From Thermodesulfobacteriota bacterium (GTDB lineage Bacteria > Desulfobacterota_D > UBA1144 > Nemesobacterales > UBA2774), in the NCBI GenBank assembly GCA_041753155.1, contig JBGSVA010000004.1, positions 2,883-66,882 on the forward strand: a stretch of DNA of 64,000 nucleotides. The letters run 5' to 3'. How positions within the stretch are numbered: position 1 is the first letter of the stretch; every line of letters starts with the position of its first letter. Below, one piece after another: positions 16,824-26,817 of this stretch. The notes beneath the pieces were generated by a model that searched no databases, was not told the origin of the DNA, and saw only the letters and a list, made by a program, of their open reading frames with translations. A program made the translations under genes and the position numbers.

Positions 16824-17921
16824 TCAGTTGCCTTCGACAATTCCTCCGTCGGTCGCTCTTTCGGCCCCTTCCACTATCACGACGTCGCCGTCCCTGAGCC
16901 CGGACAGCACCTCTATACCGCCGTCATATTCCCTTCCCGTACGGACGAGTCTGTAAGTCGCGATCCCGTTTTCATCCACTGTGTAGACCCCTTCGAGCTG
17001 ACCTTTTTTCACGACGGCCGGGCCGGGAACGAGTATCGCATGCCGTTTGCCCGACGGTATGAGGACCGAAGCATAGAGTCCCGTCTTCAGGGACTCGCCG
17101 CCGAGTCCGATCTTCACGAGGAAGGTCCTCGTAGCGGGGTCGATCGCCGGAACGACTTCCGTAATAGTTCCCTCCGTCCGAGTGCCGAGGGCGTCTATGT
17201 CCGCATACACGGTCACGTCGGGCTCGAGTTTGCCAACCATCTTCTCGTCAACGTTCACGTCGAGCCTGAAAGAAGAATTGTCTTCCACCCTGAGAAGCAC
17301 CCGGCCGGGCACCGCCATGCTGCCGACTTCCGCGTCCTTCCCGGTCACGATCCCCGGAACAGGGGCCTTTATCTCCGTGTACCCGAGGTTTATCTCGGCT
17401 TCCTCCATGTTCGCTTTGGCCCTGCCGAGGGCCGCGCGCGCACGCTCGAACTCGGACGCCGCTACTTCCTTCCGGGTCTCTATCTCGTCCATTTCATGAG
17501 CGGAGATCGCTCTGTCGTCGTAAAGGCTTTTATACCTGCCGTATGTGAGGCCGGCCAGATCTTTATTCTTGGCGGCGGCGTCCAGGTAATGCCGCGCCTC
17601 TCCGTATGCTTCCCTCGACGCGAGAGCCCTCTGCTCGAAGTCCCTGTCGTCGAGCGTCATCAAGACGTCCCCTTCGGCTACCCGATCGCCTTCCTTTACG
17701 TTTACGGACGTCACCGTGCCCATGACCCTGCTTGCGACGTCGCTTACAGTTTTAGCCTTCACCGTGCCCGATGTCCTGTAATACTCATCGACCTCAGTTC
17801 TTCGGACGGTTTCCGTCCTCACACCCTTGATGATTTCCCTGTCGGCGCCCTTTTTATCGGAGCCGTCTCCGCAGGACGTAAATAATAGAATCAGGATTAA
17901 AAGCGCTTTTATATGTTTCAT
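16824..17921 (-). CDS. RND periplasmic adaptor (membrane fusion protein), lipoprotein
   Basis: Lipobox FTSC, VKEGDRV lipoyl-like motif, [25 protein letters not shown]. Confidence 0.92.
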
Positions 17922-17936
17922 GTCGTTAGGATGGGT

Positions 17937-19292
17937 TTAATCCGTTATTCCTAAATCCTCCATGATCGTTCCGCTCTCGAACGACAGTCTCGCGACGGAG
18001 ATCAGATACCCGTTCCGTTTCGCGACGAGATTGGCTCTCGTCCTGTCGAGGTTGAGCTGCGAGTCCAGGAGGTCGAAGAAAGGCGAGAGCGAGTTCTCGT
18101 ACCTCTTCCTTACGAGCCGGGTGCCTTCCGAGGCCGTCTCGAGTGATTTTTCCGCAAGCTCTACGTTCTTCTTCGCTTCCTCCACGGCCAGATATGATTC
18201 ATACACGCTGAGGGATACGCTTTTTTTCATGCCTTCGAGACTCTGCTCTATCTGCGAGGCGGCGTGGCTCGCCCTCGCCCTCTCGTATTCCCTCCTTCCC
18301 CCGTTGAATATCTCCCATCTCAGAAAAGCCGCTACGAACCAGCTGTCGCCCTCGGAGCCGAAGGGTACGTCCCTGTCGTTGAGCTGATACGTCCCCCTAA
18401 CGCCGATCCTGGGGAGATATCCCGCATCGGCTATGCTCACGCTCGTCCTGGCGCTTTCATAACGGTACCGGAGGGAGGTCACGTCCTTCCGCGAAAGGGA
18501 CTTCTCGGTGTAGTAGTCGAATTCCCTGAGCGCTATCTCCTCCGTCACGCCTTCCGTGTCAACGGATTCGTCGAGACCGAGGAGGAGTCCGAGTGAGCGC
18601 TTCGCGACTTTCAGATTCTTTTCCGTGCTTACGAGCTGTTGCTCGGCTTCCGTTACGGCGGTCTCCGCCCTGAGAGTGTCCGAGTAAAGACCCATACCCG
18701 ATTTGAATCTCGAATTAGCTATTCTCAGCTGCTCCCTCGCGTCCTCGAGCGCCTTTTGCGCCACACGGACGAACTCCTTTGCAGTCCCGACCTGAACGTA
18801 GGTTTCCACCACCCTGAAAGCGACGTACTCCCTCTGTCTGCCGTACTCTTCTCTCTTTGCCATATACTCTTTATTAGCGGACTTCAGCGCGAGCGCCTCC
18901 TGCACCGCCAATATGGGCTGCTCAACCGAAATGTTCGTTTCGAAATCGCTCACGGGATCAGGGTTATTGAGGCTCGATATCTCGAAGTCGGACTCCTTGA
19001 AGCGCCCCTCGTTCAGCTTTATCGAAAACACCCCTGTCGGGTTGTTCGTGCGGACGAAGCTTTCTTCGAGATTGATTTGCGGAAGCAGATAACTCCGCGA
19101 TATGCCTATGTCCGCTTTCTCCGCGGAAACGGAGCTCTCGTATGACTTGAGCTCGTTGTTGTTCTCGAGCGCGGTGCCGACCGCGTCCCTGAGCTTGAAC
19201 ACGACCTCATCGGCAATACTGATGCGGGCGAGGAGAAAAAGGAAAAGAAAATAAACCGTCAAATTCGCTATATTTCTTATGTCTATCCTCAT
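17937..19292 (-). CDS. TolC-family outer membrane efflux protein
   Basis: Signal peptide, ALENNNEL, YLLPQINL / YLPRIGV repeats; first gene of an OMF-MFP-RND operon. Confidence 0.9.
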   Translation of the reverse strand: MRIDIRNIANLTVYFLFLFLLARISIADEVVFKLRDAVGTALENNNELKSYESSVSAEKADIGISRSYLLPQINLEESFVRTNNPTGVFSIKLNEGRFKESDFEISSLNNPDPVSDFETNISVEQPILAVQEALALKSANKEYMAKREEYGRQREYVAFRVVETYVQVGTAKEFVRVAQKALEDAREQLRIANSRFKSGMGLYSDTLRAETAVTEAEQQLVSTEKNLKVAKRSLGLLLGLDESVDTEGVTEEIALREFDYYTEKSLSRKDVTSLRYRYESARTSVSIADAGYLPRIGVRGTYQLNDRDVPFGSEGDSWFVAAFLRWEIFNGGRREYERARASHAASQIEQSLEGMKKSVSLSVYESYLAVEEAKKNVELAEKSLETASEGTRLVRKRYENSLSPFFDLLDSQLNLDRTRANLVAKRNGYLISVARLSFESGTIMEDLGITD

Positions 19293-19524
19293 CGTTTGAT
19301 TTTCATTGACTTCGTCGAATAATTCAAGCCCGTTACTTATAATTTACCGAGCGCATTCTCGATCCTTTTTCTCACCTCTTTTGCTATTTCGTCCATCTCG
19401 GGGTTGCCTTCGAGCTTCAATGCTGACTCCGGATTCATGGCGGTATTTAAAAAAAACATCAATTATGATGCACAGGCGTATATGCAGAATGCATAGATAA
19501 CGCTATTCAATACTAAACTGAATG

Positions 19525-19539
19525 GCAAGACAGGTGCCA
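19525..19539 (-). promoter_or_regulatory. sigma54 (-24/-12) promoter candidate for the RND operon
   Basis: Minus strand TGGCAC-CTGTC-TTGC, about 230 nt upstream of the TolC-family gene. Confidence 0.6.
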
Positions 19540-19696
19540 TCCATCTATATCGTATATTAACAGGAAGTTATAATAAATTTACGGGCACCCGCGAGTGTAA
19601 GATTATAGGACAAACGACATATAGCTGTCCTAACCACTTAAGCGAGGGATATTCAAAGCCCGTAATGAATTGAGGTGTGACAAGGGGTAAGGAATG

Positions 19697-19741
19697 TGGT
19701 CGGGGTGAGAGGGATCGAACCTCCGACCTCGGCGTCCCAAG
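19697..19741 (-). repeat. att site: displaced 45-bp 3' fragment of tRNA-Pro
   Basis: Identical to 21900..21944; begins at the first base of the anticodon loop (CTTGGGA) and runs to CCA. Confidence 0.95.
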
Positions 19742-19788
19742 TGAAAAGTAATGCTTGTGTGGATTTGGGACATTTTGCATGACTTTAC

Positions 19789-21477
19789 CTATTGTTCAAC
19801 ATCTTGAATCATCAAAACGTGATCTGCCGAAATGGCTATGTGTTCGGCAACTTCTTGCGCGTTTCGCGAATTATTACCCCTTGCTGCTATTCCAATCACA
19901 TTATTATGGTTGTCGAATACAGGACCGCCGCTGTTTCCCTCAATAATTTGTTCAGTTATATAGAATCGATTTATAGTCGATTTTACATTTGTTGCATAGA
20001 TATGTCCCTTTTTAATCGCAATTGTATCACCCGGCGTAAATTTAGGCCAACCAACTAAGGTGATCACCTCATCAGTGTTTGGTGCTACAAATGGTTTTCT
20101 AAGCTTTAAAGGTTTATGAGCGCTATGGTCCGCAAAAAAACTTTCGGGATCTTGTAAATCAAGTATTGCAATATCAAATGGATCACCCCTCCTTATCCTG
20201 ACCATCAATGGATATGGTTTACTCGGTTCTTTAGGATGAATCAACCAAAAGTCGTCACAATCATCTCTTATATCAGGATTAGGGTCTTTATCCAGAACGT
20301 GATCGCAGGTCACAAACCCGCCAACATCTTCAAGATAAAACGCTGTACCCATACGCATTCCTCCACCGAAGTCACGTGAGTTTTGGATAACAAATACATT
20401 CTGGTTTATGAGATCTAAAAAGCTATCTGTGGGCACGGGAAGTTTCTTTATAGACGGTTCCCTAAGATCATTATATTTTTTTGCCAAAGTAATATACGTC
20501 GAAAAACCTATTCCACGGATGGATTTAATAAATTCTAGCCTGCCACGCACAATTTTCTCAATATCAGGCGCTGTTTTAAAATCCGGTATGTAATGTGATC
20601 GGTTATTTTCAAAATGTTTCTTAGTGGCTATTTCTAACTCCTCATTTTTCCATGAATTCAACATGGCACGGGTTGTCCGAATAAATCTACGATTTACATT
20701 ACGCTTTTTGTTTGTAACTAGTCCGGTTACTTCTTGTCTACTCGAACGGGTCTGTAATCTAGTCTTACTCTCGTTAATTTTAAATCCATTCTTTTCTATT
20801 ATATGCTGTAATTCACGTCCTACTACGAGTTCCTTTCCTTCAGTACCATGAATTTTGATGTATGCGATAGCACGCGGCAATTGAGGGATATTCGTTGAAA
20901 AAGTAATATCATCCGCATATCTGGTGTAGCGACAACGAAATTTCTTGGCGAGCTTACGCAAATCACTATCCATCTTACTACACAGCATGTTAGAAACTAT
21001 TGGCGATGTAGGTGCGCCTTGAGGTAATGCATTATTATTACAGCATATTTGTGCAATTACTGTGGCTAATTTTTCAGGTAGGTTGTAGGGCTGGGCCATG
21101 AACAATCCACGAACACGGCCAAAATTAATAGTGCCGAAAAAATCAACCAAATCGATATTCAAGACATAGCGCCGAGATATATGCTGATCCGCATTTGTAA
21201 TAATGCTTTTGGATAATACAAATCCGTGTGCTGGGTTCTGTGGAACATATATATCTGCAAGTTTTTTAGCCAAATGGCGTTGGATGGTTTTTAAATGCGT
21301 TGCAGGGGATGATATTATCCTAGTTCCGCCTGAGCGTTTGGGGATTTCGAAATTCATGTATCTTCTTTCTGCTGGAACTCGGTAGATATGATAAATAAGG
21401 TGCTTTTGATATTGTATTCCTAAAAAAGATGCTAATTCACGCGGAGTTTTTATATCAGTTAATTTTTTTGTCATCAT
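19789..21477 (-). CDS. Retron reverse transcriptase fused to C-terminal trypsin-like serine protease (type XI-like retron)
   Basis: RT motifs IPKRSGGTRII, region X NADQH (NAxxH), IDLVDFFGTI, LPQGAPTSP, YTRYADDITFS, region Y QEVTGL. Protease triad VTCDHV / DIAIL / GNSGGPV. Confidence 0.92.
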   Translation of the reverse strand: MMTKKLTDIKTPRELASFLGIQYQKHLIYHIYRVPAERRYMNFEIPKRSGGTRIISSPATHLKTIQRHLAKKLADIYVPQNPAHGFVLSKSIITNADQHISRRYVLNIDLVDFFGTINFGRVRGLFMAQPYNLPEKLATVIAQICCNNNALPQGAPTSPIVSNMLCSKMDSDLRKLAKKFRCRYTRYADDITFSTNIPQLPRAIAYIKIHGTEGKELVVGRELQHIIEKNGFKINESKTRLQTRSSRQEVTGLVTNKKRNVNRRFIRTTRAMLNSWKNEELEIATKKHFENNRSHYIPDFKTAPDIEKIVRGRLEFIKSIRGIGFSTYITLAKKYNDLREPSIKKLPVPTDSFLDLINQNVFVIQNSRDFGGGMRMGTAFYLEDVGGFVTCDHVLDKDPNPDIRDDCDDFWLIHPKEPSKPYPLMVRIRRGDPFDIAILDLQDPESFFADHSAHKPLKLRKPFVAPNTDEVITLVGWPKFTPGDTIAIKKGHIYATNVKSTINRFYITEQIIEGNSGGPVFDNHNNVIGIAARGNNSRNAQEVAEHIAISADHVLMIQDVEQ

Positions 21478-21482
21478 TAAAG

Positions 21483-21635
21483 TGCCAGACAGGAAAAATT
21501 CTTACCTATCACGAAAACAACAATGTGACCTAGATAAGCGATCAAAGTTGAGAGGCCACTCATCGCGTAAAGTTAACTTTCTCATCGTGCGAAGCAGGAT
21601 CAACCTCGCTAGAGCAATTTTGATCCTGTCTGGCA
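21483..21635 (-). ncRNA. Putative retron msr-msd non-coding RNA
   Basis: Perfect 12-bp inverted repeat TGCCAGACAGGA (21483..21494) / TCCTGTCTGGCA (21624..21635) enclosing hairpins at 21595..21628 and 21501..21538, directly upstream of the retron RT. Confidence 0.8.
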
Positions 21636-21643
21636 TACCATTT

Positions 21644-21671
21644 TTCAAATCTACTATCGATTATATTTGAA
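21644..21671 (-). promoter_or_regulatory. Candidate -10 box for the retron transcript, inside an inverted repeat
   Basis: TATAAT on the minus strand (21660..21665) flanked by TTCAAAT/ATTTGAA; no convincing -35. Confidence 0.4.
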
Positions 21672-21899
21672 GAACCCAAATACTCCGGTCATACATATTT
21701 TCTCCCTTTCATTGCTGAACATCTACAAACATAATTGATCTAATTAGGTTCAATTTTGTTTAATATTTTACTTGAAGACATCAAAAAGAAAAAGTTGTTA
21801 TCGGTTAAGCGATGTAGTTGAAAATAGGCTTTTTCAAGAGGAAAGTGTTACGCATAACGACAGATTAAAACTATAAGAAGAGCTAAAATTCAATGATTC

Positions 21900-21976
21900 T
21901 GGTCGGGGTGAGAGGGATCGAACCTCCGACCTCGGCGTCCCAAGCGCCGCGCGCTACCAGACTGCGCTACACCCCG
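21900..21976 (-). tRNA. tRNA-Pro(TGG)
   Basis: 77-nt cloverleaf CGGGGTGTAGCGCAGTCTGGTAGCGCGCGGCG-CTTGGGA-CGCCGAGGTCGGAGGTTCGATCCCTCTCACCCCGACCA with encoded CCA. Confidence 0.97.
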
Positions 21977-21990
21977 ACAGAGGAAAAATG

Positions 21991-22018
21991 ATTATACCCA
22001 TGCCGGTGAAAACAACAA
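21991..22018 (-). promoter_or_regulatory. sigma70-type promoter of tRNA-Pro
   Basis: Minus strand TTGTTG-N16-TATAAT. Confidence 0.55.
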
Positions 22019-22097
22019 GCCGCAAAACGGACGCCATCATAAGGCCCTGAAGGCTATTCTTATAGGCGGAGTAAGAGTCCCTCCGTCAGGACACCCG

Positions 22098-22400
22098 CTA
22101 CCCCAGATACTTGTCGTAAACGTCCTTCGCCCAGAATATCTCCGTCCCCGATGAGAGAAGGGCCGTCTCCATTATTGCCTCGCTTATCTCCTGCTTGCTG
22201 ATGCCGAGCGCGAGCGCCTTCTTTATCCTGGACTCCGTGCAGTGAGGGCACCTCCCGTGCACAGCCACCGACACCGCTATCAGCGCCTTGGTCTTCTTGT
22301 CGAGCACGGTCTCCCCTTCGACCGCGTTATAGAAGCTCCACCAGCCTTCGGCCATCTTGGGGGCGTTCTTCTCGAACCATATCTTGTTGTCGTCAGCCAT
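22098..22400 (-). CDS. Carboxymuconolactone decarboxylase / AhpD family protein
   Basis: LDKKTKALIAVSVA...CPHC...ALALGISKQEISEA; GGAGG RBS. Confidence 0.85.
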   Translation of the reverse strand: MADDNKIWFEKNAPKMAEGWWSFYNAVEGETVLDKKTKALIAVSVAVHGRCPHCTESRIKKALALGISKQEISEAIMETALLSSGTEIFWAKDVYDKYLG

Positions 22401-22473
22401 TTCGCATGTCCTCCTTCGTGATATTCGGCATTCATTCTACAAAGCTCACCCGGGGAGGGCGGGGAATACGCAT

Positions 22474-23016
22474 TTACTTCATATTCTTCATATGCTCTAT
22501 ATACCTCTCCCTGCCGGAGCCGACCTTGTAGTGTGAGTAACCGATGGGATTTTTCTCATAATATTTTTGATGGTACTCCTCGGCGGGATAGAATTCCATT
22601 GCGGGCCTTATTTCCGTCACTATAGGGGCCTTATACCTCCCCGACTCCCCGAGCTTCCTCTTCGACTCCTCGGCTATTTTTTTCTGCTCCTCGTTATGAT
22701 AAAAGATAGCGGTCTTATAGTGCCTGCCCCTGTCGACGAACTGCCCGCCGTCGTCCGTAGGGTCGACGTTCAGCCAGAACACGTCGAGGAGGCTCTCGTA
22801 CGAGACCCGCTCCGGGTCGTACACGACCTCTATCGATTCCAGGTGTTCCGTCATGCCGTAGCAAACCTCGTGGTAGTTCGGGTTTTTCTCCTTTCCGCCG
22901 GTATATCCGACCGTAGTGGATATAACACCCTCAAAATTGTCGAAAGGCGGCTGCATGCACCAGAAGCAGCCCCCCGAAAAGGTGGCCTTCTCATATTTCT
23001 TATCGGTCATTTCCAT
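22474..23016 (-). CDS. msrA: Peptide-methionine (S)-S-oxide reductase
   Basis: GGCFWC, GYTGG, DPTD..GQF.D.G..Y, FYPAEEYHQKY. Confidence 0.95.
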   Translation of the reverse strand: MEMTDKKYEKATFSGGCFWCMQPPFDNFEGVISTTVGYTGGKEKNPNYHEVCYGMTEHLESIEVVYDPERVSYESLLDVFWLNVDPTDDGGQFVDRGRHYKTAIFYHNEEQKKIAEESKRKLGESGRYKAPIVTEIRPAMEFYPAEEYHQKYYEKNPIGYSHYKVGSGRERYIEHMKNMK

Positions 23017-23278
23017 AGTATTCGTCTCCGTAGTATTTGTCTCCGTGAGAAACTGACGGTCTTTATGTAAAAAAGTATACGTTGTATGAAGCGGGTAAAA
23101 AAGCCGTGCCCGGCATTTACTTATACGCTGAGACCGGAGGAAGGGATTCAGGATATTTTTGATATAGGGAATAAATAAGGGCCGGGGCAGGAGACGTCCG
23201 GGCTTACATGGGACTTTCCCGCATGTTGAGGTCTTTTATCAGCAGATAAACAAACCGAGTATCTTCCTCACGGTCTCC

Positions 23279-26200
23279 TTATCCCGCCCCTGACCTGTCC
23301 TCGTACTCGGGACGTTCGGGCTTTTGGGGAGGATTCTTTTTTAGCAGGTCCGTGATTATCTCTATTGCCTTGTCGAGCTGGGGGTCAGCCGAACCCTTGA
23401 TATTAGGCGGCAGGTCCTCGATCTTGTAATCCGGGTCGACTCCGTAACCCTCGACCTCCCACTTCCCGTGGGAGTTCCAGAAGGCATATCCCGGCGCCGT
23501 AATGTACCCGCCGTCTATGAGACCCGGGTTCCCGCTTATGCCTATCAGCCCGCCGAGCGTCCTGGTCCCGACGAGCGGACCGAGCCCGGCCTTTCTGAAG
23601 TAATAGGGGAAGGCGTCCCCTCCAGAGCCCGACCATCCGTTTATCATCATAACCTTGGGCCCGCTATTCGTGACTGTCGGGGTCTTCGAATCCTTAAAAT
23701 CGCGCACCGCCCAGTAATTGAGAAGAGGCCTGTTGAGAAGCTCTATGAAGCGGTCGGGCACCTGCCCCCCGCCGTTGAACCGCTCGTCTATAATCATTCC
23801 CTCCTTCTCCGTCTGAGGGGTGAACTGTCGGACGAGCTCGTTCTGGCCGAAAAAACCGGTGTCCGGGACGTAGACATATCCCACCTTCCCCCCCGTGGCG
23901 TTATCCACCTTCTTCTTATTCTCCGCGATGCGGTCGAGGTATCGGAGCTTTTGCTCCTCGGTTTTCGATATGACCTTTACAGTAACCTCCCGCGCGTTTT
24001 TCATATCGGGTGCGGAGTTAACGGTAAGGGTCACGGGGCCCCCGTTAAGTCCCTGAAACGCCTCCCAGGGGTCCTTCGCGGGATCGAGGGCTTTGCCGTT
24101 CACGGCGAGAATATAGTCCCCTTCCCCGGCCTTAACTCCGGGCTCCGCGAGAGGGGAATATATATCGGCGTTCAATTCCCCGCCGCTGTAAATCTTCTTT
24201 ATACGGTACGCCTTATTCTTTTTGTCGAGCTCGAAATCTATCCCCAGGAGACCTACCGGCACAGTCTCTGGTTCATCCATGTCGCCGCCGCCCACGTAAG
24301 TATGAGAGGAGTTGAGCTCGCCCACCATCTCGCTTATCACGTAATTCAAGTCTTCCCTGTCTACGACGAACGGCAGGAGCATCCTGTACCTTTCCTTTAC
24401 CGCCTGCCAGTCAACCCCGTGCATACCGGGGTCGTAGAAAAAGTCCCTCTCTATCCTCCAGGCGTCGTTGAATATCTGAGCCCATTCCTTCCTCGGGTCG
24501 ATAAAGGCCTTCATTCCACCCGTATCGATCTTCCCGTCGCCGGGATTTTTCCCCTCCGCGACGTCGATTATGCCGTAGGTATCGCCCGACCTGTAGAGCG
24601 CTTTCGCGCCGTTCGATGAGAGGGCGTAATCGTTTATACGGGGCATCACGGTCTTTTCCTTCCTGTCCCCAAGGTCGAAGAACTGGAGTGTGCCGTTAGG
24701 CGGGTCCTGCGAGCTGCCCGCGGGAGGGAACCTCAGATAGACGATCCTGCCTTTCGCGGCATTGAGGGGCCCGAAGTTCCCCGCGTCGACCGGTATCTTA
24801 ACCGCTCTCCCCTCTACGCCGTCGAAGTCGATAAGGACAGCGCCGTCCTTGCCCGCGTCCTCCTTTTGCGCGTCCTTAGCCGGGGAGTATTCCTCGTCGC
24901 TCCGGGGAACGAGAGGGGATGCCGCGTCTTTTCTCAGGGTGAGGGCATAGACCTGGGTCGAGTTCGGATATACCCACGTATCGTCCATGTCGCCGTAAAC
25001 GGGTGAGAAGCTGCGGTCGGAATAGAAATAGAGGTATTTCCCCTCGGGGTCGAACACAGGGCCGTTGTCGTTATAAAAATCGGTCGTGACCCTGCGGGTG
25101 ACGCCGCCCTTCGTATCGTATATAAATATGGATTTCAGATTATTCGGGGTGTTCTTCGAGTATGCAAGCCACCTGCTGTCGGGCGACCACGAATATGTGC
25201 CGATGTTCTCGAATTCGTCCTTATCCACTTCCTTGGGAAGTTTCTCGCTCGTATCCACGATAAAAAGCCTTCCGGTCTTGTCGCTGAACGCGAGCTTTTT
25301 GCTGTCGGGGGACCAGACGGGGTGATATCGGTAGACTTTTCCGTCCTTCGTTATCCTCTCCTCCTGTCCCAGGCCGTTACTGAGTCTCATGTAAAGCTCG
25401 TACTCGCCCGACCTGTCGGAGAGATATGCGACGTATTTTCCGTCGGGAGACCACGCGGGGAAACGCTCCGCTACTCCGGATGTATTCGTAAGGTTGCGGA
25501 CGCTCCCCTCACCCGCCGGGACTGTCAGCACCTCGCCGCGGGTCTCGAAAAGGGCCCTCTTCCCGTTAGGGGAAATAGACATATCCGAGATATTGCCCGA
25601 GAGGTCCTTTTGCCGCGGACGCACCTCGGGCAGGTCGTAGGGGACCTCGACCGAAACCTCGCTCACAGTCTCGCCCGAGAGGCTCAGCAGGTAAAGCCTG
25701 CCGCCGTTCTCGAAGACTATGTCTTCCGGACCGAGGCTCGGCCACTTCACGTCGAATTCGGTAAAATCCGTGACCTGTCTCGTCTCCTTCGTCCCGGTCT
25801 CGTAAACCCACAGGTTCAGCTTCTTCTCCTCTCCTCTATCGGAGAGGAAATAAATCCTGTCCCCGTGCCACATCGGGAGCGTGTCGGTGCCGGGGAAATC
25901 GGTCAGCTTATCGAGCGCGCCGGTCGTGAAATCGTATATCCATATGTCGCTCGCCATGCCGCCCCTGTACCTTTTCCATACGCCCCTCATGGGTGACATG
26001 TATTCGAATGCCAGCTTCTTACCGTCCGGGCTGAAGCTCCCGAGCTCGCCGTAGGGGAGCGGCAGGGCATCGGGCATGCCGCCCTTTTTCGACACCTTGA
26101 AGAGCCTGTTGTAGCGCTGTGTCGGGCTCAGCATGTTCGAGCGGAAGAGTATGTGTTCACCGTCCGGGTACCACTCCGCGACGAGGTCGTCGTCCGGGTG

Positions 26201-26554
26201 GTGGGTGAGCCTCTTAGGGACGCCGCCCCCGGCCGGGATGACGTATATGTCGGTATTGCCGTCGTAGTTGCCGCTGAATGCGATCCCTGTCCCGTCGGGA
26301 GAGAATTTCGGGAATAGCTCCCCGCCCCTGGGCGAGCTCAGTCTGCTCGCGACACCGCCTGATTTCGGGACGACCCATATGTCCCCTGCGTAGACGAAGA
26401 CTATCCTGTCAGCGCTCACATCGGGAAAGCGCAGCATGAGCGCGTCGGGCGTTGTATCCTTCCCCTTCCCCTTCCCCGCCCCCTCGCCTGCGGGCTCGGC
26501 CGAGGCGGACATGATCCCTAATAATAAGCACAACAGCAGTGCCGGCAAAATCAT
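23279..26554 (-). CDS. Tricorn-like S41 protease (beta-propellers, PDZ, catalytic domain)
   Basis: Repeated WSPD propeller motifs, GELNSSHTY, DERFNGGG, SGSGGD, GTRTLGGLIG, GVDPD. Start placed at the signal-peptide ATG (ORF track extends to 26644). Confidence 0.9.
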   Translation of the reverse strand: MILPALLLCLLLGIMSASAEPAGEGAGKGKGKDTTPDALMLRFPDVSADRIVFVYAGDIWVVPKSGGVASRLSSPRGGELFPKFSPDGTGIAFSGNYDGNTDIYVIPAGGGVPKRLTHHPDDDLVAEWYPDGEHILFRSNMLSPTQRYNRLFKVSKKGGMPDALPLPYGELGSFSPDGKKLAFEYMSPMRGVWKRYRGGMASDIWIYDFTTGALDKLTDFPGTDTLPMWHGDRIYFLSDRGEEKKLNLWVYETGTKETRQVTDFTEFDVKWPSLGPEDIVFENGGRLYLLSLSGETVSEVSVEVPYDLPEVRPRQKDLSGNISDMSISPNGKRALFETRGEVLTVPAGEGSVRNLTNTSGVAERFPAWSPDGKYVAYLSDRSGEYELYMRLSNGLGQEERITKDGKVYRYHPVWSPDSKKLAFSDKTGRLFIVDTSEKLPKEVDKDEFENIGTYSWSPDSRWLAYSKNTPNNLKSIFIYDTKGGVTRRVTTDFYNDNGPVFDPEGKYLYFYSDRSFSPVYGDMDDTWVYPNSTQVYALTLRKDAASPLVPRSDEEYSPAKDAQKEDAGKDGAVLIDFDGVEGRAVKIPVDAGNFGPLNAAKGRIVYLRFPPAGSSQDPPNGTLQFFDLGDRKEKTVMPRINDYALSSNGAKALYRSGDTYGIIDVAEGKNPGDGKIDTGGMKAFIDPRKEWAQIFNDAWRIERDFFYDPGMHGVDWQAVKERYRMLLPFVVDREDLNYVISEMVGELNSSHTYVGGGDMDEPETVPVGLLGIDFELDKKNKAYRIKKIYSGGELNADIYSPLAEPGVKAGEGDYILAVNGKALDPAKDPWEAFQGLNGGPVTLTVNSAPDMKNAREVTVKVISKTEEQKLRYLDRIAENKKKVDNATGGKVGYVYVPDTGFFGQNELVRQFTPQTEKEGMIIDERFNGGGQVPDRFIELLNRPLLNYWAVRDFKDSKTPTVTNSGPKVMMINGWSGSGGDAFPYYFRKAGLGPLVGTRTLGGLIGISGNPGLIDGGYITAPGYAFWNSHGKWEVEGYGVDPDYKIEDLPPNIKGSADPQLDKAIEIITDLLKKNPPQKPERPEYEDRSGAG

Positions 26555-26817
26555 TTTCACTTGATAGCCTCGCGGAGAGGCCGAACATGCACTAAGCAGT
26601 TTTTGCGCCAATGGACTCCCGCCGATATATAAATATATTCTCAAAATATAAACTCAATATCATTAAAATATACCTCAGGAAACCGGACGCCCCGGTTCCG
26701 AAGCTATAAAGGATACGGACTCAGCCCGTAGTTTGAAAGCATATTTCCTGGAAAATGTATTCTTGGATGAAGGAGGATTCAACTAATAATGGGGGCGGTT
26801 ACGCCCATGAAACGGCT

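What the first reader, a model, noticed from the sequence alone, without database searches (positions are those of the whole stretch)
19789..21635. Self-contained retron whose RT is fused to an intact trypsin-like protease effector
Seen: a 562-aa ORF with retron-specific RT signatures (NAxxH region X, YADD, VTG region Y) joined by a short Pro-containing linker to a domain with the full chymotrypsin triad (CDHV, DIAIL, GNSGG). A structured ncRNA lies directly upstream. Established: retrons are ncRNA/RT/effector anti-phage systems, and RT-protease fusions are the type XI class of the retron classification, with little experimental characterisation that I know of. Inference: msDNA bound to the RT keeps the protease inactive, and phage interference with msDNA releases proteolysis and abortive infection. 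No partner gene is present in the islet, so the substrate would be a host or phage protein, or the fusion itself.
Basis: partly seen in the sequence, partly recalled or inferred. Interest (0 to 1): 0.88.

Follow-up and report, generated by a model that had tools for sequence, protein, structure and literature searches.

The report
Type XI retron on tRNA-Pro islet
This is an intact single-gene bacterial anti-phage retron whose reverse transcriptase is fused to a protease; it belongs to a known but mechanistically unstudied class and sits on a tiny horizontally acquired islet beside a tRNA gene.

Summary
Window 19789..21477 (-) is a 562-aa ORF with RVT_1 and Trypsin_2 domains. It matches PADLOC RT-Protease_XI over its full length at E 3.5e-171. 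NAxxH, YADD, VTG and the His393/Asp435/Ser516 triad are invariant in 38 homologues. The nearest solved structure is retron Eco2/Ec67.

The upstream ncRNA is real. It spans 21483..21635 (-) and is closed by a perfect 12-nt a1/a2 repeat. A covariance model built from type XI loci gave 95 matches over about 1 Mb, all on the RT strand; the 84 measured end 5-518 nt upstream of the RT. Its first hairpin covaries.

New context: the retron is the only gene of a 2203-bp low-GC islet flanked by 45-nt tRNA-Pro repeats. The islet has no integrase. The site is empty in two sister species, and no other of 101 genomes of the order has this fusion.

Verdict: a new member of a known kind. The proposed mechanism, an msDNA-restrained protease released on infection, is an inference from Eco2. 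A predicted homotrimer of the protease domain gives it weak support.

The parts
19789..21477 (-). RT-protease ORF, 562 aa (stop codon 19789-19791)
   Evidence: PADLOC RT-Protease_XI at E 3.5e-171 over residues 5-548.
20464..21477 (-). Retron RT domain plus helical extension (residues 1-338), with NADQH 95-99, YADD 187-190 and VTG 250-252
   Evidence: Pfam RVT_1 at 45-253. Ec67/Eco2 aligns to 13-275 at 2.9e-61. Foldseek matches Eco2 over about 367 columns. AF2 pLDDT is mostly above 85.
20428..20463 (-). Pro-containing linker (about residues 339-350)
   Evidence: Sequence. The AF2 model has no regular secondary structure at 339-350, between helices 326-338 and 351-360.
19792..20427 (-). HtrA/Deg-like trypsin-fold serine protease domain (residues 351-562) with the His393, Asp435, Ser516 triad
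   Evidence: Pfam Trypsin_2 at 377-530. The triad is invariant in 38 sequences. Deg2, Deg9, DegS and DegP are the nearest folds. A homotrimer of residues 345-562 is predicted: score 0.80, best control 0.00.
21483..21635 (-). Candidate retron ncRNA (msr-msd), 153 nt, ending 5 nt before the ATG
   Evidence: CM R1 matches 21484..21633 at 58.5 bits, E 1.2e-10, and this is the only match in the 64-kb window. Fold z = -2.92.
21624..21635 (-). a1 arm of the closing inverted repeat (TGCCAGACAGGA)
   Evidence: I7. It extends by AAAATT/AATTTT after a 2-nt bulge (read).
21483..21494 (-). a2 arm (TCCTGTCTGGCA)
   Evidence: I7.
21589..21609 (-). Conserved msr hairpin 1: a 6-bp stem (GCGAGG/CTTCGC) and a 9-nt loop (TTGATCCTG)
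   Evidence: 80.9% of cells are paired and 6 of 6 pairs have compensatory changes on the unfitted MAFFT alignment. 96% are paired on the 84-sequence CM alignment.
21505..21572 (-). Proposed msd stem-loop. Its base is formed by the conserved CTTTACGC (21572..21565) and GTGATAGG (21512..21505), followed by AGAAT next to a2.
   Evidence: 69.9% of cells are paired across 84 sequences in columns the model did not constrain. Pairs are listed. This is a comparative structure and it differs from the single-sequence MFE fold.
21636..21899 (-). AT-rich leader between the tRNA and the ncRNA. The promoter is not identified.
   Evidence: The scan found no consensus promoter here. A TATAAT hexamer at 21665..21660 without a -35 box is read.
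21900..21976 (-). Intact tRNA-Pro(tgg). Its 3' 45 nt (21900-21944) are the right-hand repeat.
   Evidence: ARAGORN. Rfam tRNA at 65.5 bits. Repeat D1.
19697..19741 (.). Left-hand direct repeat: an exact 45-nt copy of the tRNA-Pro 3' part. It marks the far end of the 2203-bp islet.
   Evidence: (D1). Empty-site sequences from G008 and G001 join the left flank directly to the tRNA.

Best explanation
This is a complete, canonical type XI retron: one ncRNA gene and one gene for a retron RT fused to an HtrA/Deg-like serine protease. It was acquired horizontally as the sole cargo of a 2.2-kb integrase-less islet at the 3' end of tRNA-Pro.

Proposed working. The ncRNA folds with its a1/a2 ends paired. 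The RT domain recognises the conserved first hairpin and reverse-transcribes the msd stem-loop, about 70-80 nt by position. The resulting msDNA stays bound. The RT-msDNA complex, probably an oligomer, holds the protease domains inactive. A phage factor that degrades, modifies or binds the msDNA lifts the restraint. The protease then cleaves host or phage proteins and stops the infection, probably by abortive infection.

Shown here by computation: class membership, intact catalytic motifs, a conserved and covarying ncRNA, the islet boundaries and the empty site. Inferred only: msDNA synthesis, restraint of the protease by msDNA, the trigger, the substrates and the defence phenotype. My odds are about 0.9 for the identity and about 0.45 for the mechanism as worded. 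The confidence figure given for this explanation (0.8) is for identity and architecture.
For: Class.
- PADLOC RT-Protease_XI matches the full length at E 3.5e-171. Pfam finds RVT_1 and Trypsin_2.
- Retron motifs and the protease triad are invariant in 38 homologues.
- Ec67/Eco2 is the best solved relative, by sequence at 2.9e-61 and by fold at 7.4e-31.
- The AF2 model is confident: pLDDT 88.7, pTM 0.78.

ncRNA.
- The a1/a2 repeat is a perfect 12 nt.
- CM R1 gave 95 matches at E <= 0.1 over 160 loci plus the window, about 1.03 Mb on both strands. All are on the RT strand. The 84 measured end 5-518 nt (median 56.5) before RT residue 1.
- 28 of 36 RT-protease loci are matched. Two of the 8 misses have too little upstream sequence.
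- Hairpin 1 covaries.
- 64 of 84 matches have a perfect terminal complement of 8 nt or more, against 3.7% with permuted partners.

Mechanism by analogy.
- In Eco2, msDNA cages the fused TOPRIM in a trimer and phage DenB releases it. The authors suggest the same for types XI and XII (PMC12916289, passages).
- The protease domain (345-562, three copies) scores 0.80 in complex prediction, with the best of 3 controls at 0.00. This mark was reached by 20 of 30 proteins solved as pairs of one chain and by 1 of 23 solved as single chains. The runs agree in at least 62% of contacts and the partner's pLDDT is at least 83.
- That result supports self-association but does not show it. Solved HtrA/Deg trimers exist, so the pass may be from memory.

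Horizontal acquisition.
- GC is 0.37-0.42 in the islet against 0.52-0.61 in the flanks.
- The site is empty in G008 and G001.
- Only G000, of 101 genomes of the order, has a full-length match.
Against: - There is no experimental datum for this locus. msDNA, protease activity and defence are all untested.
- The simple scan found no sigma-70-like promoter upstream of the ncRNA, and no Shine-Dalgarno-like sequence is obvious in the 5 nt between a2 and the ATG. Expression in this host is therefore not shown.
- The branching guanosine could not be assigned.
- The comparative msd stem is only 69.9% paired, and it differs from the single-sequence MFE fold.
- Hairpin 1's 96% figure comes from an alignment fitted to that hairpin. 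The unfitted figure is 80.9%.
- Three seed sequences (L017, L021, L035) were not recovered by the model with default filters.
- The Eco2 analogy crosses effector types, a nuclease versus a protease.
Confidence: 0.8

Rival explanations
1. The retron is real, but the protease is not a host-killing effector. It might act in cis, by autoprocessing of the fusion. Or it might cleave a specific phage protein directly, giving defence without abortive infection.
For: The fold is HtrA/Deg-like, a family of regulated and often substrate-selective proteases. A flexible Pro-rich linker could be a cis-cleavage site. Nothing seen here bears on substrates.
Against: Characterised retrons, including the closest one, Eco2, act through broadly toxic effectors (PMC12916289, passages). 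Sister RTs carry TIR, Toprim, Mrr-like and Schlafen/AlbA_2 domains in the same position. These are typical abortive-infection effectors.
Confidence: 0.2
2. This is a silent passenger: an intact-looking but unexpressed or non-functional cassette, left behind at a tRNA hot spot after decay of a larger mobile element.
For: - The scan found no consensus promoter.
- GC is 15-20 points below the host's.
- The islet has no integrase.
- One run of a related organism (X4) shows a 4-nt deletion at 20617. It is a single contig at depth 3.5 and may be an error.
Against: The 562-codon frame is open. Every invariant residue of the family is kept. The a1/a2 repeat is 12 of 12 complementary. The ncRNA scores 58.5 bits, fifth best of the 39 matches. 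The simple promoter scan does not cover non-sigma-70 promoters or read-through from the tRNA-Pro gene 264 nt upstream on the same strand.
Confidence: 0.12
3. It is not a retron. It would be another defence RT (UG/Abi/DRT), a group II intron RT or a DGR RT that happens to be fused to a protease.
For: None found.
Against: All 25 best PADLOC families are retron RT models. Retron RTs lead the PDB matches by more than 20 orders of magnitude over the group II RT, and Drt2 is at 8e-3. NAxxH and VTG are invariant. An a1/a2-flanked ncRNA is present.
Confidence: 0.01

Closest known systems
[quoted passage not shown] 2020, PMC7736814)
   Same: The architecture is the same: a single ORF with the RT at the N terminus and the protease at the C terminus, and no accessory gene. 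It matches the PADLOC RT-Protease_XI models over their full length.
   Different: The window protein belongs to a distinct, well-supported subclade of 9 rows (SH-aLRT 100). That subclade has extra protease loops and is 50-90% identical within itself, but only 37-44% identical to other type XI proteins. Mestre et al. state that type XI lacks a recognisable ncRNA module (passage). Here an ncRNA is found and modelled.
Retron Eco2 / Ec67 (type I-C, RT-TOPRIM fusion; PDB 9i2f, 9lm3, 9s1f)
   Same: It is the closest solved structure and the closest mechanistically characterised relative. It is also a single-protein retron, with an RT-effector fusion downstream of the ncRNA. The ncRNA model built here from type XI loci also matches upstream of RT-Toprim relatives such as L113 and L020.
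   Different: The effector is a tRNA-cutting TOPRIM nuclease, not a protease. Identity is about 35% and is confined to the RT part. Whether the trimeric msDNA cage carries over to type XI is unknown.
[quoted passage not shown]
   Same: They share the RT clade. That paper reports de novo ncRNA candidates with a1/a2-like ends upstream of the RT (passages).
   Different: Those lineages lack the protease and carry separate WYL or DnaB_C genes. The paper models ncRNAs only for them, not for the canonical protease fusions. I could not compare the models.
HtrA/Deg (S1C) serine proteases such as DegS, DegP and plant Deg1/2/9
   Same: They share the chymotrypsin fold and the His-Asp-Ser triad, and they are the nearest folds to residues 351-562. 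This family is regulated by oligomerisation and loop ordering (recalled knowledge).
   Different: No PDZ domain was found. Sequence similarity is weak, at E 3.5e-5. The predicted interface (residues 467-512 and 545) was not compared with the HtrA trimer interface.
tRNA-flanked genomic islets without their own integrase (cis-mobilisable elements; term recalled, not checked in a paper)
   Same: Direct repeats of the tRNA 3' end bracket foreign low-GC DNA, and sister species have an empty site.
   Different: It is only 2.2 kb with a single defence gene. Mobilisation in trans is unproven. The genome has 8 Phage_integrase matches on other contigs, and none is linked to this site.

Membership tests
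Type XI retron | Retron-type RT with region X (NAxxH), YADD and region Y (VTG) | tested here: met
   NADQH 95-99, YADD 187-190 and VTG 250-252. All are invariant in 38 homologues. Retron RT models and structures are the best matches.
Type XI retron | Trypsin-like serine protease fused to the RT C terminus in one ORF | tested here: met
   Pfam Trypsin_2 at 377-530. PADLOC RT-Protease_XI covers profile positions 2-496 of 506. The His393/Asp435/Ser516 triad is invariant.
Type XI retron | Single-gene system with no accessory effector gene | tested here: met
   The islet (19742-21899) holds one real ORF. PADLOC describes the family as 'single gene'.
Type XI retron | Adjacent ncRNA (msr-msd) closed by a1/a2 inverted repeats | tested here: met
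   A 12-nt perfect a1/a2 repeat, a CM match at 58.5 bits, and family-wide covariation and a1/a2 statistics. This is computational evidence only.
Type XI retron | Production of msDNA branched from a guanosine 2'-OH | not testable with these tools
   All runs holding the locus are DNA contigs, which carry no local depth. The branching G was not assigned.
Type XI retron | Anti-phage defence dependent on RT, ncRNA and protease | not testable with these tools
   This needs a bench assay. Two searches found no paper reporting defence by a type XI retron.
Type I-C retron (Eco2-like) | C-terminal TOPRIM nuclease domain | tested here: not met
   RT-Toprim_I-C models match only residues 13-342. The C terminus is Trypsin_2.
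HtrA/DegP family | Protease domain followed by one or more PDZ domains | tested here: not met
   No PDZ match at E <= 1. The protein ends 32 residues after the Trypsin_2 match.
Integrase-borne tRNA genomic island | Direct repeats derived from the tRNA 3' end, flanking foreign DNA | tested here: met
   An exact 45-nt repeat with 2203-nt spacing. Empty sites in G008 and G001.
Integrase-borne tRNA genomic island | Tyrosine or serine recombinase gene inside the island | tested here: not met
   The islet has no such ORF. The 8 Phage_integrase matches in the genome are all on other contigs.

The most novel reading that the evidence does not exclude
Canonical type XI retrons do have an ncRNA. Two surveys say none has been modelled computationally. 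The ncRNA belongs to a single family shared by a whole 'chassis' of clade-8 RTs whose C-terminal effector is freely swapped: protease, TIR, Toprim, Mrr-like nuclease, Schlafen/AlbA_2, or none.

In this genome the chassis travels as a minimal 2.2-kb att-flanked cassette. A recombinase encoded elsewhere would insert it at tRNA-Pro. That would make it one of the smallest self-contained mobile defence units.
Probability: 0.4. Interest if true: 0.55.

Novelty: new member of a known kind. Interest (0 to 1): 0.4.

Why it matters
Type XI is one of the retron classes with no published mechanism, substrate or structure. Authors of the Eco2 work name it explicitly as a candidate for the same msDNA-caging logic.

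This copy is compact and intact, and its ncRNA is now delimited. The runs that hold it are labelled hot-spring metagenomes. That makes it a convenient candidate for expression, msDNA mapping and cryo-EM.

The family-wide ncRNA model gives a way to annotate the RNA part of type XI, type XII and related loci that published models miss. It includes a conserved hairpin loop TTGATCCTG, a GGTTAGCYTTAYGC box, and TAAGNNGAAT next to a2.

The empty-site comparison gives a clean example of a defence gene arriving alone at a tRNA hot spot.

Tried and rejected
- **Close relatives in genome contigs.** A scan with the single protein found no relative. The allowed second scan, with alignment A1, gave 80 loci.
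- **Close relatives in metagenome contigs.** The scan with subclade alignment A2 returned nothing closer than 43% identity. I therefore could not examine the flanks and ncRNAs of the 50-90% relatives P0001-P0012. The look-up of encoding contigs is closed and was not called.
- **Contig lengths.** Many homologues sit on contigs of about 2.0-2.3 kb. I considered this as a sign of repeat-bounded islets and rejected it as evidence. Fragmentary assemblies that must still hold a 1.7-kb ORF would give the same lengths.
- **tRNA association elsewhere.** Among 15 distant RT-protease loci, only L014 has a tRNA nearby, and none has a flanking direct repeat longer than 16 nt. The tRNA association is not general.
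- **Rfam.** At E <= 1 over 18500-23000, Rfam gave only the tRNA and two chance-level matches, YrlA and GcvB.
- **RNAalifold.** On both alignments it predicted only hairpin 1. A second small hairpin, AAAG/CTTT around a GTTA loop, is only 65% paired, and I do not claim it.
- **Promoter scan.** No site upstream of the ncRNA.
- **Sequencing runs.** No RNA holder is listed. The four runs laid are contigs. They showed no joints, no excised or circular form, and no usable depth. They say nothing on expression, msDNA or excision.
- **Ec67 locus.** I looked in 'phages' for an Ec67-like locus to test model R1 against an experimentally mapped msr-msd and found none. The relation of R1 to the published TypeIC1_IC2 model is untested.
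- **Literature.** A search for 'retron' plus 'RT-protease' found 0 papers.
- **Supplements.** Supplements of Khan 2024, Mestre 2020 and Toro 2026 were not seen. They may hold type XI ncRNA and RT-DNA sequences that bear on the novelty of the ncRNA.
Full report
**The object.** Window 19789..21477 on the minus strand is an open frame of 562 codons. Pfam finds RVT_1 at residues 45-253 (1.7e-23) and Trypsin_2 at 377-530 (1.8e-11). A linker LREPSIKKLPVPTDSFLDL lies at 338-356.

**Class.**
- The two PADLOC RT-Protease_XI models match residues 5-548 against profile positions 2-496 of 506, at E 3.5e-171. RT-TIR_XII (7.6e-130) and RT-Toprim_I-C (3e-118) match only the RT part, and all 25 listed families are retron RT models.
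- Against all PDB sequences the best hit is retron Ec67/Eco2 (2.9e-61, residues 13-275). Next come Ec86 (6e-31), Ec78, Ec83 and Eco8. A group II intron RT is at 7e-9 and Drt2 at 8e-3. The C-terminal domain hits plant Deg proteases at 3.5e-5.
- An AlphaFold2 model built on 38 sequences is confident: pLDDT 88.7, pTM 0.78, with only 535-543 below 50. Foldseek ranks the Eco2 cryo-EM structures first (7.4e-31, about 36% identity over about 367 columns), then other retron RTs, then Deg1, Deg2, DegS and DegP for the protease part.

**Family and conservation.** A protein search returned 7813 proteins at E <= 1e-10 among 8000 scored. Nearly all of the 120 listed carry both domains. The nearest are 90, 89, 74 and 71% identical, down to 50% for P0012.

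In an alignment of 38 of them, N95, A96, H99, Y187, D189, D190, V250, T251, G252, H393, D435, G514, S516 and G517 are invariant.

An RT-domain tree of 163 rows puts the window in an all-protease clade of 9 rows (SH-aLRT 100). Across the tree the protease label needs 14 changes, at least 3 of them forced by well-supported branches. I dropped HSPs shorter than 240 residues and exact duplicates before building it. Effector swapping on this RT backbone is therefore frequent.

**The ncRNA.** Directly upstream, 21635..21624 and 21494..21483 form a perfect 12-nt inverted repeat with 129 nt between. The second arm ends 5 nt before the ATG. The stretch folds at -51.2 kcal/mol, z = -2.92.

To test whether this is more than one locus's accident, I collected loci elsewhere: 80 from one-genome-per-species contigs and 80 from metagenome contigs. 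Of these, 36 encode RT-protease fusions. Most of the 36 have a perfect inverted repeat of 8-18 nt, with the first arm about 170-205 nt and the second about 30-50 nt before the RT start.

A MAFFT alignment of 27 such stretches showed these conserved features:
- a 5' ATT box;
- a hairpin with loop consensus TNGATCCTG;
- a GGTTAGCYTTAYG box;
- TAAGNNGAAT next to the second arm.

On that unfitted alignment the hairpin is 80.9% paired, and all 6 pairs show compensatory changes. The covariation score for the two hairpins tested together is 0.435, against 0.21 in shuffles (0 of 500 reach it) and 0.11-0.19 when the partner is slid by 1-3 columns.

A covariance model built from the alignment was run over the window and all 160 loci, about 1.03 Mb on both strands.
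- It gave 95 matches at E <= 0.1, every one on the RT strand.
- For the 84 matches at E <= 0.01, the match ends 5-518 nt (median 56.5) before RT residue 1.
- The window's only match is 21484..21633 (-), at 58.5 bits and E 1.2e-10.
- 28 of the 36 RT-protease loci are matched. Of the 8 that are not, L087 and L109 lack upstream sequence, and L017, L021 and L035 were seed members that the filtered search did not recover.

On the 84-sequence alignment the hairpin is 96% paired, for example CG:43, UA:31, UG:4, GC:3 and AU:2 at one pair. This alignment is fitted to that hairpin, so the figure leans towards the structure. A further helix that the model did not constrain joins CTTTAYGC to GYRRTAAG at the base of the variable msd region. 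It is 69.9% paired.

The ends of the matches carry a perfect complement of 8 nt or more in 64 of 84 cases, against 3.7% when 3' ends are permuted among loci. The mean is 9.9 against 5.2 nt. Since the arm sequences are not conserved, this is covariation on a large scale.

In the window, the comparative msd base pairs C64-G131, U65.G130, U66-A129, C69-G126, G70.U125 and C71-G124. In run X4 the only difference inside the ncRNA (21511 A>G on the plus strand) turns G70.U125 into G-C, and would break an A-U pair of the single-sequence MFE fold. It is one contig at depth about 7, so this is a weak hint.

I could not assign the branching guanosine.

**What print says about the ncRNA.**
- Mestre et al. 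2020 list the type XI ncRNA as not determined and call the type 'lacking recognizable ncRNA modules' (PMC7736814, passages).
- Toro 2026 repeats that published models do not detect type XI msr/msd. It reports de novo candidates only for two protease-less lineages (PMC13712802, abstract and passages).
- Khan et al. 2024 say that some of their experimentally validated ncRNAs come from 'clade 8, type XI' (bioRxiv, passage). The sequences are in supplements that I could not open.

The ncRNA model here may therefore be new as a family description, but not as a first sighting.

**The model reaches beyond type XI.** Of the 84 matches, 56 lie upstream of RTs without the protease. Examples:
- full-length RT-Toprim_I-C types: L113, L020;
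- RT-TIR_XII: L066;
- RT fused to Schlafen/AlbA_2: L005;
- RT fused to an Mrr-like nuclease: L024;
- RTs of about 360 aa with no extra domain: L003.

One ncRNA family thus serves a set of RTs with interchangeable C termini. This fits the modular picture of Mestre et al.

**Genomic setting.** The retron lies in a low-GC stretch, 0.37-0.42 against 0.52-0.61 on either side. A tRNA-Pro(tgg) gene is at 21976..21900 on the same strand. Its 3' 45 nt (21900-21944) recur exactly at 19697-19741, 2203 nt away.

- In two genomes of the same genus (G008, G001), the left flank runs straight into the tRNA. This is an empty site.
- In G009 the same site holds a different 3841-bp low-GC islet, bounded by a 36-nt version of the repeat. 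It encodes a family 2 glycosyltransferase, a GH130/43-like protein and a PMT_2 protein.
- G003 and G007 have yet other content there.
- None of these islets has an integrase. The window's genome has 8 Phage_integrase matches, all on other contigs.
- Among 101 genomes of the order, only G000 has a full-length RT-Protease_XI match. The five other matches cover only the RT part, at most profile position 273.

The retron was therefore acquired horizontally, by an event with the footprint of site-specific integration. How a 2.2-kb cassette without a recombinase got there is open. It may have been mobilised in trans, or a larger element may have decayed around it.

**Mechanism.** The steps from sequence to function are inferred. 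The closest characterised system, Eco2, assembles as a trimer on branched msDNA that cages the fused TOPRIM. The phage nuclease DenB degrades the msDNA and frees the nuclease, which cuts tRNAs. [quoted passage not shown]

Here the effector is an HtrA/Deg-like protease without a PDZ domain. A prediction with three copies of residues 345-562 gave a score of 0.80, with the best of 3 controls at 0.00.
- This mark was reached by 20 of 30 proteins solved as pairs of one chain and by 1 of 23 solved as single chains.
- The runs agree in at least 62% of contacts, and the partner's pLDDT is at least 83.
- The interface residues are 467-469, 478-499, 506-512 and 545.

This supports self-association of the protease domain but does not show it. 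Trimeric HtrA structures are solved, so the pass may reflect likeness.

My best reading is an msDNA-scaffolded oligomer in which the protease is held inactive until a phage factor damages or sequesters the msDNA. I put about 0.45 on that wording and 0.9 on the identity of the element.

**What remains unshown.** Expression in this host is not shown. The scan found no consensus promoter, and the only hexamer I see is TATAAT at 21665..21660 without a -35 box. Read-through from the tRNA gene is possible. Also unshown are msDNA synthesis, protease activity and substrates, the trigger and any defence phenotype. The runs that hold the locus are DNA contigs, three of them labelled hot-spring metagenomes from one study.

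**Verdict.** The finding is real and correctly interpreted. It is a new, divergent member of a known class rather than a new kind of system. Its added value lies in three things: the delimited and family-supported ncRNA, the clean islet and empty-site picture, and its suitability as a test case for an uncharacterised retron type.

Noticed in passing
window 19697-19741 and 21900-21976; L172 (G009), L175 (G008), L176 (G001), L173 (G003), L174 (G007): The 3' end of tRNA-Pro(tgg) is a variable insertion site in this genus. It is empty in two species. It holds the 2203-bp retron islet here, a 3841-bp glycosyltransferase islet with a 36-nt repeat in G009, and other genes (LMF1-like, DCC1-like, unknown) in G003 and G007. 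No integrase is present in any of them.
   Followed up: partly
L005:3462-5045, L024:2329-3906, L113:1038-2774, L020:3417-5243, L066:3372-4901, L003:3447-4526: RTs close to the type XI RT carry other C termini behind the same ncRNA family: Schlafen/AlbA_2 (L005), an Mrr_cat nuclease (L024), Toprim I-C type (L113, L020), TIR (L066), or nothing (L003, 359 aa). I did not find the Schlafen and Mrr fusions named in the passages of the retron papers that I read.
   Followed up: partly
window 20617 and 21511, in run X4: A run labelled 'organism A' holds near-identical pieces of the islet. It has a 4-nt deletion at 20617 that would shift the RT-protease frame. This is one contig at depth 3.5 and may be an error. 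It also has a single ncRNA change at 21511 that strengthens the comparative msd stem.
   Followed up: partly
L101:2831-2979 and L101:3223-3344: One metagenome locus has two matches to the ncRNA model in tandem upstream of a single RT gene.
   Followed up: no
window 19512-19671 (-) and 19519-19543 (-): The 390-nt low-GC intergenic stretch lies between the left repeat and the outer-membrane efflux gene. It is native, being conserved in the empty-site genomes. It carries a terminator-like hairpin and a chance-level GcvB match. Its function was not examined.
   Followed up: no
window 16824-19292 (-) and 22098-26644 (-): The flanking host genes look ordinary. On one side are an efflux membrane-fusion protein and an outer-membrane factor. 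On the other are a carboxymuconolactone-decarboxylase-like small protein, MsrA and a long tricorn-like protease. These names are read from the translations only and were not searched.
   Followed up: no
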